From: Escherichia coli
Lineage (GTDB): Bacteria > Pseudomonadota > Gammaproteobacteria > Enterobacterales > Enterobacteriaceae
Length of the DNA: 64,000 bases
Assembly: GCF_050920415.1 (NCBI RefSeq)
Contig: NZ_CP169309.1
Strand: one strand, 5' to 3'
Positions 9,001-12,000 of the stretch are shown piece after piece. Made by a program: the position numbers. Position 1 is the stretch's first letter; the number at the start of each line of letters is the position of its first letter.

Positions 9001-12000
9001 CGGATATTCAGCGCACTGTCGTAATCCAGGCGGGTACAGTTGTATTGGCACTGGTGATCGCAAATATGACCGGTAATGGCGGGCAGGGCGTTGCGTTGGT
9101 AGATGAGTTCCAGTGCGTCGGCATAGCGGTGTTCGCCAAGCAGACGGATGTATTCCGGAATATCTTGCTTGATAGCGCAGGCAGTAACACAGGGGGCAAC
9201 GTAGCAGTCGGTCAGCGGCAGGTCTTCTGCCACTTCAATACGCTCTTCTGGCTTCCAGTGTTTCTGGGTGTATTCCATGGTTAACGCGTCTGCTGCCAGT
9301 CTGTTCAGTCGTTCGACGTCAACGTGGTTAAGCTTCCAGGCGTCGGAGCCTTCCAGCTCGCGCATGCAGGCACTTAAGCGCAGATAGCCGCCAGGTTTCA
9401 GCAGGTCGGTTGCCATAGTAATAGGGCGAATACCAGTATCAAAAATATCGCGGATAGTCAGCTGACTGGCGCCACCGGAATAAGAAATGGGCAGTTTGCC
9501 GTCAAAGGCGCGAGAGAGAACTGCTGCAACATTGATGGAGAGCGGAAACAGCGCACGGCCTGACATATACATCTCTTCACCGGGCAGTGCACCTTTGTTA
9601 TTAATGGTGCCGAGGGTATTGGTCAGTTTGACGCCAAAGCCGAGTGATTTTTCTTTTGCCAGTGCCATCAGGCGTTCCAGCATTTCCAGTGCTTGCGTCA
9701 GCTTGAGGTCGTGATCAAATGACTCTTCTTTTAAGCCTATGTAACCGAAACCGCAGACATCGAGGATCTCACGAACACGCGCGTACCCCAGTAAGGTCGG
9801 GTTGAGTTTCACAAAGGTATTGAGCCCTTTTTCTTCCAGCATGTAGCGGCAAATGGCTTCGATTTCATGCGGAGGACAGCCGTGCATCGTGGAGAGGGTG
9901 ACGCCTTGTACCATGCTGGTGGGGATGCGTGCCGGTAAGGCCTGCAAGCATTCGCGTTTTTCCTGTAAGCCGTGGCGGGCTAAAAATGCGTCATCCTGGA
10001 GTAATTTATTCAGCGTATCGCGATATTGAGCGAATTTCGGATGGTCAGATGCGTCCATCATATTGTCGATGAACTGTTGCATCGGCGGTTGCTTAATACC
10101 TTCGAGGTTGTAACCGACGCTCATATTAAAGATGAACGATTTACCGGAATCAGAAGGCTGGAACATCGCTTCGAGAAGGTGCAGGGCAAACCAGGCTTTG
10201 AGGTATTCATCCCAGGCTTTAAGCAGGGTAAATTCGGTGGACCATTCGGTGTTAAAGCACTCGTCTTCGGCATCAATACAGGGCTTTTCCAGCTCCAGGC
10301 GGTCAAGAATTTGGACGGTTTTTAGTTCGATGAAGCGTCCGCCAGTCAGCCAGGATGTGACAATATTTTGCGCGAGCTGCGTGTGCGGACCAGCGGCAGG
10401 GCCGACGGGAGTGGCACAGGTTTCACCGAAGACGCTAACGGTTTTACCTTTTACGGGTGAGTAAAACTGTTGCTCGGGAATACCAAAGATTGAGCGTTGT
10501 TGTTGGTATTCATCAAATATGCGCGTCAAAAGTTCCTCAAACGGAATGGGACGCATAATATCCCCCATAACCCTCTCCTTAGCTTATACAGATATCATTG
10601 AGTGACCGGTGTTGAGAAATCCGGTGGTTTAGGGGGATAGAGCAACAATCGCACCACTCTTGCCAGGTTTGGCGGGAAATATAAAAAAATGTGAGGCGGC
10701 TCGAAACTTAAGGGCTTTTTGTGAATGAACTCACAGGTGCCAAATGAGAATTAAAATCACTCCTGGAAATTATTATTACCAGCCCATTTATCACTTTTTC
10801 TCTTTTCTCAAAATCAGTGATTCCTTATCATAATGATAAAGCAGGCTGGATGGTTTAAATATTTGAACGCAAACGTTTAACTACGTTTTCTAAATTTCAG
10901 TATACCTTTTTTGCGCTGTAATAAAGTCGTCCGGAGTATCAATATCTAAAATTATTTCTGCATTCTCTATTTCGACGGAATAATGTTCTCCCATAAGGAG
11001 TGCCTGACGCATATTGGTGACATTGGGTCGCTGGGTTGCCTGCATCAGGCATGGCTTTGACACTAAAATCGGATGGCCGGGGATACCTTTATGGAGTGGC
11101 AGTATTGCGCCATCATTACGTAACAACCAGATTTTTCTAAAAATATCGATGGTGAGGGTTGGCATGTCACCGTGGGTGAGAAAACAATGTTCGGTTTGCA
11201 CCGCGGGTACTGCGGCCTTTACTGATGTCAGTAAACCCTGCGCATAATTTGGGTTGTGGATAATAGTGATATTACTCTGGTTCGCATAACGTTCGTGCAG
11301 TTCATTACCACGATAGCCGGTGACTAAAATAATTCGGCTACAAAACTGCAACGCATTTTTGATACTTGCATCAAGAATTGTTCCCTGTTGCCAGGGTAAC
11401 ATCATTTTCCATTGCCCCATTCTTGATGATAATCCGGCAGCGGTAATTATACAGTCGATGGCTGACATAGTGGTTCCATTATTAATAGGGGCTAATAATG
11501 CCTGTTAATTGCGTTACTTCCTGATGGATTAAGTTGGGGATAATTTATCCCAGAGAGGTCATAAAGACTCGTGAAAAGTATAGTTGACCCATCGGCATTA
11601 TTCATTGATTTAGGCGCGCAGAAACGTCCCACTGTGATTTCTGTTGTTGGGGCTGGGGGGAAAACCAGCTTGCTTTTTTGGCTGGTAGAACTGCTCCAGG
11701 CTAGCGGCAGGCGTGTGTTAATCACTACGACGACACATATGTTTATGCCAACGTCTCACTGGCCCGTGGTTTTCTGTCGTGATCCCGCCATGCTTCCTCA
11801 TGCGTCTCTTACATCCCCCATTTCATTTTGTTTTCACAGCTGGAAAGCGAACCAGGGAAAAGTGCAGGGATTTATGCCAGAAGCGATTGATGCACTGGTG
11901 CAACGACCAGAGTGTGACGTAATTCTCATTGAGGCTGATGGCTCGCGTGGAATGCCGTTAAAAGCGCCTGATGAGCACGAACCTTGCATACCCAAAAGCA

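What the first reader, a model, noticed from the sequence alone, without database searches (positions are those of the whole stretch)
10649..10839. Second sigma54-like motif upstream of the ygfK-ssnA-ygfM-xdhD-xanQ-guaD operon
The minus strand reads CTGGCAAGAGTGGTGCGA (TGGCA ... TGC with GG-N10-GC spacing) about 80 bp upstream of ygfK, with an AT-rich inverted repeat TTATCAT-A-ATGATAA (10825-10839) further upstream. This is weaker than the xdhA site, but a second such motif in the same cluster supports a common YgeV/sigma54 regulon.
Basis: partly seen in the sequence, partly recalled or inferred. Interest (0 to 1): 0.4.

Follow-up and report, generated by a model that had tools for sequence, protein, structure and literature searches.

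The report
Known ygfK sigma-54 promoter, mis-registered

Summary
The window is E. coli. The region is the mocA–ygfK intergenic DNA.

I compared 74 orthologous ygfK upstream regions. The Bonocora register keeps GG-N10-GC in 73 of 74 (median 14.2 bits).

The palindrome (10825–10839) is real and conserved as TATCA-N3-TGATA, exact in 59 of 72 orthologues. It recurs upstream of the ygeW, xdhA and ygfT σ54 promoters. It matches the enhancer predicted for DioR, the clostridial activator of the orthologous genes (Nie 2019). It is most likely the YgeV binding site.

A perfect CRP core at −97.5 and a CRP-like box at −67.5 lie between the enhancer and the promoter.

The finding is already known. The register decision and the shared promoter architecture are modest additions.

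The parts
10641..10657 (-). sigma54 promoter, conserved register GTGGTGCGATTGTTGCT. The -24 GG is at 10655-10654 and the -12 GC at 10643-10642. The predicted start is about 10630, 62 nt upstream of the ygfK ATG.
   Evidence: Identical to Bonocora 2015 site OS31 (ChIP-seq FAT 26). PWM 12.6 bits, rank 5 in the window. GG..GC kept in 73 of 74 orthologues, median 14.2 bits. These columns are conserved at 8-9 on a 0-9 scale.
10649..10666 (-). It is a non-conserved look-alike that overlaps the true -24 element.
   Evidence: 11.0 bits, rank 13. The same offset in the orthologues has a median of -14 bits, and GG..GC is kept only in 3 Escherichia loci. The columns -36..-28 are mostly weakly conserved (1-4 on a 0-9 scale, one column 7).
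10825..10839 (.). Enhancer (UAS) palindrome TTATCAT-T-ATGATAA. The conserved core TATCA-N3-TGATA is at 10826-10838, centred at -202. It is the probable YgeV binding site.
   Evidence: Exact core in 59 of 72 orthologues, at discrete distances from the promoter. A PWM trained on non-Escherichia sites gives 19.6 bits here and places further top hits upstream of ygeW, xdhA and ygfT. Same motif as the clostridial DioR UAS.
10803..10821 (-). Degenerate second enhancer-like site centred at -182, 20 bp from the palindrome. Its right half TTTTGAGAAA is conserved.
   Evidence: These columns are conserved at 8-9 on a 0-9 scale. The PWM scores only 0.4 bits because the left half is poor.
10742..10762 (-). 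Conserved block GAGTGATTTTAATTCTCATTT (-132 to -112). The factor that binds it is unknown.
   Evidence: Conserved at 7-9 on a 0-9 scale across 41 Enterobacterales.
10720..10735 (.). Perfect CRP core TGTGA-N6-TCACA, centred at -97.5.
   Evidence: The only exact match in the 64 kb window. In the orthologues it has 0 or 1 mismatch at -97.5/-98.5 in 31 of 72, against a null of 0.1% and 0.6%. ygfK is listed as a CRP genomic-SELEX target in PMC3105977.
10690..10705 (-). CRP-like box TTCGA-N6-TCACA, centred at -67.5.
   Evidence: A box of the same type is centred at exactly -67.5 at the xdhA and ygfT promoters and at -77.5 at ygeW. It is widespread in the orthologues. The per-position background frequency is 4.2e-4.
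10864..10878 (-). Conserved box AAACGTTTGCGTTCA just after the mocA stop codon, 36-41 bp upstream of the palindrome. It resembles a PUR box, but the factor is uncertain.
   Evidence: The core CGnTTGCGnTCA has up to 1 mismatch in 13 of 72 orthologues. The window has two PUR-box matches with 3 mismatches, against 0.3 expected, and the other one is upstream of ygeW.
7470..10568 (-). ygfK coding sequence, the first gene of ygfK-ssnA-ygfM-xdhD.
   Evidence: ORF list. RefSeq annotation of an identical E. coli record.
10890..11468 (-). mocA (ygfJ), the upstream gene on the same strand.
   Evidence: No terminator-like site between mocA and ygfK.
20663..22441 (+). ygeV, the sigma54-dependent activator of the cluster (PAS, AAA+ and HTH_8 domains).
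   Evidence: Pfam scan. It is homologous end to end with a Firmicutes activator that lies next to the same palindromes.

Best explanation
This is the regulatory region of the ygfK-ssnA-ygfM-xdhD operon, which encodes the first steps of reductive uric-acid degradation.

It sits there as a closed complex and would start transcription near 10630.

The activator YgeV is a PAS/AAA+/Fis-type-HTH enhancer-binding protein of the same family as clostridial DioR. It binds as a dimer or higher oligomer to the palindrome TATCA-N3-TGATA centred at -202, probably helped by the half-site at -182. It then reaches the polymerase by DNA looping.

cAMP-CRP bound at -97.5, and probably at -67.5, lies between the enhancer and the promoter. 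I infer that it supplies the bend for looping. That would make the operon need the YgeV signal and also the absence of glucose.

Shown by others: sigma54 occupancy in vivo, rpoN-dependent expression, CRP binding to this region in vitro, and co-expression with the rest of the cluster.
Shown here: which register is conserved, that the palindrome is conserved, and that the palindrome is shared by four promoters.
Inferred: that YgeV binds the palindrome, and that CRP has an architectural role.
For: Published data:
- sigma54 ChIP-seq site OS31 with exactly this 17-mer, FAT 26.
- ygfK rises 2.1-fold after sigma54 induction and falls 2.4-fold in an rpoN deletion.
- The YgeV iModulon includes ygfK, ssnA, ygfM and xdhD.
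- CRP genomic SELEX lists ygfK, ygeV<>ygeW and ygfT<>ygfU.
- Glucose represses uric-acid degradation in wild-type E. coli.

Register:
- 73 of 74 orthologues keep GG..GC in this register, 57-124 bp from the ATG, whatever the upstream gene is.

Palindrome:
- The core is exact in 59 of 72 orthologues.
- A PWM from non-Escherichia sites hits upstream of ygfK (19.6 bits), ygeW (16.9), xdhA (13.2 and 9.2) and ygfT (16.9, the only hit above 7 bits in 12.5 kb).
- Nie 2019 lists the same motif as the DioR UAS upstream of clostridial ygeW-ygfK-ssnA-ygeY, for example ATTTATCATAATGATAAGG.
- A Firmicutes homologue of YgeV shows 34% identity including the sensor region, 43% identity over the C-terminal part, and an identical helix ELGIGIATLYRKI. 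It lies next to the only three palindromes and the only strong sigma54 site in its 21 kb locus.

CRP:
- The only perfect core in the window, conserved at a fixed position.
- CRP-like boxes at -67.5 in three of the four promoters.
Against: - No transcription start site has been mapped for ygfK, so the register rests on conservation and on the MEME call of the ChIP-seq study.
- At 12.6 bits the E. coli site is weak by sequence (TGGT instead of TGGC at -24) and lies below 42 of the 46 reference sites.
- In vitro genomic SELEX with sigma54 holoenzyme did not list ygfK.
- No experiment shows that YgeV binds DNA. The IsrR/YgeV paper reports none.
- CRP's positive, architectural role is my inference. 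At other sigma54 promoters CRP has been reported to inhibit (from memory).
- The palindrome lies further upstream (-202) than many enhancers.
Confidence: 0.8

Rival explanations
1. The reader's register (TGGCA at 10665-10661, TGC at 10653-10651) is the functional -24/-12, alone or as a second promoter overlapping the other, as Zhao et al. predicted in 2010.
For: It has correct GG-N10-GC spacing and a canonical TGGCA. It scores 11.0 bits, which is within the lower range of bound sites. It is the published 2010 prediction. ChIP-seq cannot separate sites 9 bp apart.
Against: It is absent outside Escherichia (GG..GC in 3 of 74 loci, median -14 bits). It decays within the genus to 7.0-7.8 bits. Its -12 is GTGCG rather than TTGCW. 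The ChIP peak centre (3014019) lies on the downstream side of, and nearer to, the other motif's centre (3014001).
Confidence: 0.05
2. The palindrome is the site of a regulator other than YgeV, for example Fur or another global AT-rich binder, and only happens to lie upstream of the promoter.
For: It is AT-rich and shares the 10-mer ATAATGATAA with the Fur consensus (recalled from memory). No direct YgeV binding data exist.
Against: The best Fur-consensus alignment over it has 7 of 19 mismatches, and more than 200 positions in the window do as well. Conservation falls on the arms TATCA and TGATA, with a free 3-bp spacer and symmetric TCTCA/TGAGA variants. It recurs at four sigma54 promoters of this cluster. 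It also recurs next to YgeV homologues in Firmicutes.
Confidence: 0.1
3. ygfK is mainly transcribed by sigma70 polymerase, either from a CRP-dependent promoter in the intergenic region or by read-through from mocA, and the sigma54 complex is a silent bystander.
For: There is a perfect CRP site. No terminator follows mocA. Many sigma54 ChIP sites are not productive promoters. Zhao et al. report that 14% of sigma54-dependent genes are also read by sigma70.
Against: There is no sigma70-type -35/-10 match on the ygfK strand. The promoter-plus-enhancer module follows ygfK even where mocA is not the upstream gene. ygfK expression depends on rpoN and tracks the YgeV iModulon.
Confidence: 0.1

Closest known systems
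sigma54 binding site OS31 (ygfK) of Bonocora et al. 2015, PMC4591121
   Same: It is the identical 17-mer GTGGTGCGATTGTTGCT, with the same predicted start 62 nt upstream of ygfK. This is the feature itself.
   Different: Nothing differs in sequence. The paper gives binding only. It does not give a start site, an activator or an enhancer, and it does not discuss the competing register.
ygfK promoter predicted by Zhao et al. 2010, PMC2831329 (aaccTGGCAAGAGTGGTGCGATtgtt, -97..-80)
   Different: It is not conserved in any genus other than Escherichia. I consider it a mis- bp upstream of the real elements.
DioR regulon of Clostridiales (Nie et al. 2019, PMC6615313)
   Same: A sigma54 promoter plus upstream inverted repeats ATTTATCA-N3-TGATAA or TTCTCA-N3-TGAGAA, placed in front of orthologous genes (ygeW-ygfK-ssnA-ygeY, yqeB, yqeC-ygfJ, xdhABC, dpaL). 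The C. botulinum site ATTTATCATAATGATAAGG is nearly identical to the E. coli palindrome.
   Different: It is a different phylum. The clostridial sites are computational predictions and usually come in pairs or triplets. E. coli ygfK has one strong site plus a half-site, and adds CRP boxes that were not described for Clostridia.
prpBCDE promoter of E. coli and Salmonella (sigma54 with PrpR, subject to CRP control; recalled from memory, not checked here)
   Same: A sigma54 promoter for a catabolic operon that needs both a specific enhancer-binding protein and cAMP-CRP.
   Different: The activator and enhancer sequence are different. The fixed -67.5 position of the CRP-like box seen here at three promoters has no counterpart that I know of.

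Membership tests
sigma54 (RpoN)-dependent promoter | GG at -24 and GC at -12, separated by 10 bp, within a TGGCAC-N5-TTGCW-like sequence | tested here: met
GTGGTGCGATTGTTGCT has 2 mismatches to the consensus and scores 12.6 bits on an independent PWM.
sigma54 (RpoN)-dependent promoter | The promoter elements are conserved at the orthologous position in other species | tested here: met
Met for the 10641-10657 register (73 of 74 loci, median 14.2 bits).
sigma54 (RpoN)-dependent promoter | sigma54 holoenzyme occupies the site in vivo | not testable with these tools
   From the literature: ChIP-seq peak OS31, FAT 26. In vitro genomic SELEX did not list it.
sigma54 (RpoN)-dependent promoter | Transcription depends on rpoN and starts about 12 nt downstream of the GC | not testable with these tools
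   Microarray data: ygfK falls 2.4-fold in an rpoN deletion and rises 2.1-fold after sigma54 induction. I found no mapped start site.
sigma54 (RpoN)-dependent promoter | An upstream enhancer and a cognate AAA+ activator are encoded nearby | tested here: met
   Palindrome at -202. ygeV, 10 kb away in the same cluster, has Sigma54_activat and HTH_8 domains.
DioR/YgeV-type enhancer (UAS) | Inverted repeat T[A/C]TCA-N3-TGA[T/G]A with AT-rich flanks | tested here: met
   TTATCATTATGATAA at 10825-10839. It matches the DioR sites listed in the supplement to PMC6615313.
DioR/YgeV-type enhancer (UAS) | Lies about 100-250 bp upstream of a sigma54 promoter and recurs at the other promoters of the regulon | tested here: met
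   Centres at -202 (ygfK), -234 (ygeW), -152 and -131 (xdhA) and -198 (ygfT). In the window, 8 hits reach 12 bits against 1.15 expected.
DioR/YgeV-type enhancer (UAS) | Co-occurs with an activator homologous to YgeV, including the DNA-binding helix | tested here: met
   Firmicutes locus L081: the activator shows 34% identity over YgeV residues 8-400 and 43% identity over residues 407-589, with ELGIGIATLYRKI identical. Three palindromes and a 16.3-bit sigma54 site lie immediately downstream of it. I could not retrieve the named DioR proteins themselves.
DioR/YgeV-type enhancer (UAS) | The activator binds the repeat directly | not testable with these tools
   I found no binding experiment for YgeV/IsrR or DioR.
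CRP binding site | TGTGA-N6-TCACA core | tested here: met
   A perfect core at 10720-10735, the only exact match in 64 kb. It is conserved at -97.5/-98.5.
CRP binding site | cAMP-CRP binds the site and affects expression | not testable with these tools
   Genomic SELEX lists ygfK as a CRP target at the resolution of a region. Glucose represses the pathway.
Fur box (considered for the palindrome) | Match to the 19-bp consensus GATAATGATAATCATTATC (recalled from memory) | tested here: not met
   The best alignment has 7 of 19 mismatches, and more than 200 window positions are as good. The orthologues have 5-11 mismatches.
   There are no matches on the minus strand in 10500-10950. The two matches on the plus strand are within the chance expectation.

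The most novel reading that the evidence does not exclude
All four intergenic sigma54 promoters of the E. coli uric-acid/purine cluster (ygfK, ygeW, xdhA, ygfT) are built to one plan. A YgeV enhancer, T[A/C]TCA-N3-TGA[T/G]A, lies 130-235 bp upstream. A CRP or CRP-like box sits at a fixed -67.5 (or -77.5) and takes the architectural place usually held by IHF.

The same enhancer code is shared with clostridial DioR and with other Firmicutes. That suggests the activator and its DNA sites have stayed together across phyla along with the pathway genes.

At yqeB the enhancer lies about 220 bp downstream of the start site, inside the long 5' UTR.
Probability: 0.5. Interest if true: 0.45.

Novelty: already known. 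Interest (0 to 1): 0.25.

Why it matters
The operon encodes the opening steps of the anaerobic, reductive uric-acid pathway. Gut bacteria use this pathway to dispose of urate, and there is current interest in engineering it for gout. One group has already replaced the native ygeV–ygeW control region to escape glucose repression.

Three pieces of information would let people design reporters, inducible constructs and de-repressed strains rationally:
- the correct −24/−12 elements;
- the probable YgeV docking site;
- the positions of the CRP boxes.

They would also allow a test of what signal YgeV senses.

As a discovery, the σ54 site itself adds nothing new. The register decision settles a discrepancy between two published calls.

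Tried and rejected
- My first pattern, TGGCA-N8-TGC, had one N too many and missed the site. The correct spacing is N7, and one search found both registers.
- Fur-box reading of the palindrome: rejected, 7 of 19 mismatches.
- σ70 promoter on the ygfK strand, and a terminator after mocA: none found.
- PurR reading of the conserved box at 10864–10878: inconclusive. The window strain has 3 mismatches to the PUR box, but most orthologues read CGATTG, with 4–6 mismatches.
- IHF site between the enhancer and the promoter: I saw no convincing WATCAANNNNTTR match by eye and did not score it formally.
- A second σ54 promoter between the yqeC palindrome and the yqeB start: none reaches 5 bits.
- Reitzer & Schneider 2001 (PMC99035) is not held, so I could not see which register EcoCyc's "predicted" promoter uses.
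- The first homologue search timed out. The repeat returned mostly fragments of enterobacterial YgeV, and only one distant full-context homologue was usable.
- I looked for a YgeV-like gene within 3 kb upstream of ygfK in 80 species and found none.
- The IsrR (YgeV) paper holds no DNA-binding data.
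Full report
**Identity of the region.** The 601 bases around the finding match 5,171 of 5,426 complete E. coli genomes and are annotated as mocA and ygfK. In the window, mocA is 10890–11468 and ygfK is 7470–10568, both on the minus strand. They are followed by ssnA, ygfM and xdhD. The finding covers most of the 321-bp mocA–ygfK intergenic region.

**The observation.** CTGGCAAGAGTGGTGCGA lies at 10666–10649 on the minus strand with GG-N10-GC spacing, 81 bp from the ygfK ATG. TTATCAT-A-ATGATAA lies at 10825–10839. The σ54-like motif has 3 mismatches to TGGCACN5TTGCW. At that stringency the window holds 280 matches, against 299.5 expected by chance. The same search showed an overlapping candidate 9 bp downstream, TGGTGCGATTGTTGCT, with 2 mismatches.

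**What is already published.**
- Bonocora et al. 2015 (PMC4591121) mapped σ54 by ChIP-seq. They list site OS31 for ygfK with the motif GTGGTGCGATTGTTGCT, a fold-above-threshold score of 26, a predicted start 62 nt upstream of ygfK, and the mark "predicted in EcoCyc". Sites for xdhA (OS29, score 11), ygeW (OS30) and ygfT (OS32) are in the same table.
- The same paper validated by mutation a σ54 promoter inside yqeC that drives yqeB.
- Zhao et al. 2010 (PMC2831329) found ygfK up 2.1-fold after σ54 induction and down 2.4-fold in an rpoN deletion.
- The PRECISE-1K study defined a YgeV iModulon containing xdhABC, ygeWXY, hyuA, ygfK, ssnA, ygfM, xdhD, ygfT and uacT.

So a σ54 site at ygfK and a common YgeV/σ54 regulon are both known. 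The literature contains two different register calls.

**Which register.** I built a 17-column PWM from 46 intergenic ChIP-seq sites, leaving out the four sites of this cluster.
- The Bonocora register scores 12.6 bits, rank 5 of 127,968 positions in the window.
- 42 of the 46 training sites score 13 bits or more.

I then fetched 80 loci encoding YgfK relatives, one per species.
- In 74 of them the best PWM hit within 200 bp of the ATG reaches 10.5 bits or more, and it is always in the Bonocora register. The consensus is (C/T)TGG(C/T)NNGATTGTTGCT, 57–124 bp from the ATG in almost all.
- GG..GC is kept in 73 of 74 loci (median 14.2 bits) in that register.
- In the register 9 bp upstream it is kept in only 3 of 74, all Escherichia (median −14 bits).
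- Across 41 Enterobacterales, the TGG and GATTGTTGCT columns are conserved at 8–9 on a 0–9 scale.
- More distant species carry a canonical TGGC at −24 (up to 19.4 bits in Buttiauxella). The Escherichia/Citrobacter/Klebsiella group carries TGGT.

No σ70-type promoter is found on the ygfK strand, and no terminator follows mocA.

**The palindrome.** The core TATCA-N3-TGATA is exact in 59 of 72 orthologues. It starts at a few discrete distances from the predicted start (about −188, −208 and −220). These differ by roughly two and three helical turns. Some species carry the symmetric variant TCTCA…TGAGA.

In the window, matches with up to 1 mismatch number 10 against 3.2 expected, and no shuffle reaches 10. 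A symmetric PWM made only from non-Escherichia ygfK sites puts its best window hits here:
- the ygfK palindrome, 19.6 bits;
- the ygeV–ygeW intergenic region, 16.9 bits, at −234 from the ygeW start;
- inside yqeC, 14.6 bits;
- inside ygeX, 13.2 bits;
- upstream of xdhA, 13.2 bits at −152 and 9.2 bits at −131.

In the identical E. coli record, the ygfT–uacT intergenic region just outside the window holds the only hit above 7 bits in 12.5 kb. It scores 16.9 bits and is centred at −198 from the ygfT σ54 start.

The module follows ygfK whatever gene lies upstream: mocA, a divergent yqeC, a yqeB-like gene or hyuA.

**Link to an activator.** Nie et al. 2019 (PMC6615313) reconstructed a clostridial σ54 regulon for an activator they named DioR. 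It covers dpaL-pyrC-argE, ygeW-ygfK-ssnA-ygeY, yqeC-ygfJ-yqeB-xdhC, xdhABC, yqeB and pbuX. Their supplementary table lists the predicted enhancer sites. Examples are ATTTATCATAATGATAAGG, TATTATCAAAGTGATATT and, in C. difficile, ATTCTCGAATTGAGAATA. This is the same motif, with the same two flavours that I see in Gammaproteobacteria.

E. coli YgeV has PAS, σ54-interaction, AAA-lid and HTH_8 domains. A search with its N-terminal sensor region found a Firmicutes activator.
- It aligns with YgeV from residue 8 to 400 at 34% identity.
- Across an assembly gap, it aligns from residue 407 to 589 at 43% identity.
- The helix ELGIGIATLYRKI is identical in both.
- The gene lies directly upstream of YgeY-like and YgeX-like genes.
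- In that 21-kb GC-rich locus, the only σ54 hit of 11 bits or more is 71 bp upstream of the ygeY-like gene. The only three palindrome hits of 9 bits or more lie 76–234 bp upstream of that promoter.

I found no experiment showing that YgeV (also called IsrR) binds DNA. The assignment of the palindrome to YgeV is therefore a well-supported inference and has not been demonstrated.

**CRP.** TGTGAGTTCATTCACA at 10720–10735 is the only exact TGTGA-N6-TCACA in the window. It is centred at −97.5. At −97.5/−98.5 the core has 0 mismatches in 18 orthologues and 1 mismatch in 13, out of 72. Shuffled sequences give frequencies of 0.1% and 0.6%.

A second box, TTCGA-N6-TCACA, is centred at −67.5. Boxes of the same type sit at exactly −67.5 at xdhA (TTTTA-N6-TCACA) and ygfT (TTTGA-N6-TCACA), and at −77.5 at ygeW (TGTGA-N6-CCACA). 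The background frequency of such matches is 4.2e-4 per position.

Shimada et al. 2011 list ygfK, ygeV<>ygeW and ygfT<>ygfU as CRP genomic-SELEX targets. A 2025 preprint refers to the native Crp site between ygeV and ygeW and shows that glucose represses uric-acid degradation. I infer that CRP provides the bend between enhancer and promoter. This has not been tested.

**Other conserved DNA.** Two further blocks are conserved, with no factor assigned: GAGTGATTTTAATTCTCATTT (10742–10762) and AAACGTTTGCGTTCA (10864–10878).

**Function of the operon.** YgfK with SsnA carries out reductive dearomatisation and ring cleavage of isoxanthine. XdhD-YgfM reduces uric acid to isoxanthine.

**Verdict.** The σ54 promoter and the regulon are already known. 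The palindrome is a real, deeply conserved enhancer.

What this analysis adds:
- the choice between the two published registers;
- the probable E. coli YgeV site;
- the common architecture of the four promoters.

Noticed in passing
window 11972-11988 (+) and 12213-12231: The validated sigma54 promoter inside yqeC that drives yqeB (Bonocora IS34) has a conserved TTCTCA-N3-TGAGAA palindrome exactly 242 bp DOWNSTREAM of it, inside the 399-nt 5' UTR. The spacing is the same in about 45 species, although both elements lie in coding sequence. No second sigma54 site lies between the palindrome and yqeB. This may be a naturally downstream enhancer.
   Followed up: partly
window 2862-2878 (-), inside xdhD; and 6713-6729 (-), inside ssnA: ATGGCGCAAACTTTGCT is the best sigma54 PWM hit in the whole window (15.6 bits). 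It points towards xanQ. CTGGCACGATTAGCGCA in ssnA scores 14.3 bits. Neither gene name appears in the Bonocora ChIP-seq text or tables, and no palindrome hit lies upstream of either.
   Followed up: no
window 10867-10882 and 20385-20400: The only two matches in the window with 3 or fewer mismatches to the PUR-box consensus ACGCAAACGTTTGCGT (0.3 expected) lie upstream of the ygfK and ygeW sigma54 promoters. At ygfK the box is conserved in 13 of 72 species, 36-41 bp upstream of the palindrome. Most of those species read CGATTG, so PurR is doubtful.
   Followed up: partly
window 18647-18665, inside ygeX: An exact TATCA-N3-TGATA (TATCAAGATGATA, 13.2 bits) lies inside the ygeX coding sequence, about 280 bp from its start. 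No sigma54 site is obviously associated with it.
   Followed up: no
window 20663-22441 (YgeV residues ~80-95) and L081 10001-11242: The N-terminal sensor region of YgeV carries a C-x2-C-x5-C motif (PLCEGCDNKDNCREKA). The Firmicutes homologue keeps it (LVCRDCPKHAGCEETA). This hints at a metal-, cluster- or redox-sensing input.
   Followed up: no
window 10400-11000: Only 7 of 5,171 matching E. coli genomes are 99% or more identical to this stretch, and the rest are 95-99% identical. The window therefore comes from an uncommon lineage. The 17-mer sigma54 site is nevertheless identical to that of K-12.
   Followed up: no
L010, L011, L014, L020, L042, L072 (about 2460-3001): In Pluralibacter, Klebsiella oxytoca, Serratia silvae, Cedecea and Raoultella terrigena, a short yqeB-like gene is divergent from ygfK. 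A single strong palindrome (18.7-21.6 bits) lies between two outward-facing sigma54-like sites, which suggests one enhancer serving two promoters.
   Followed up: no
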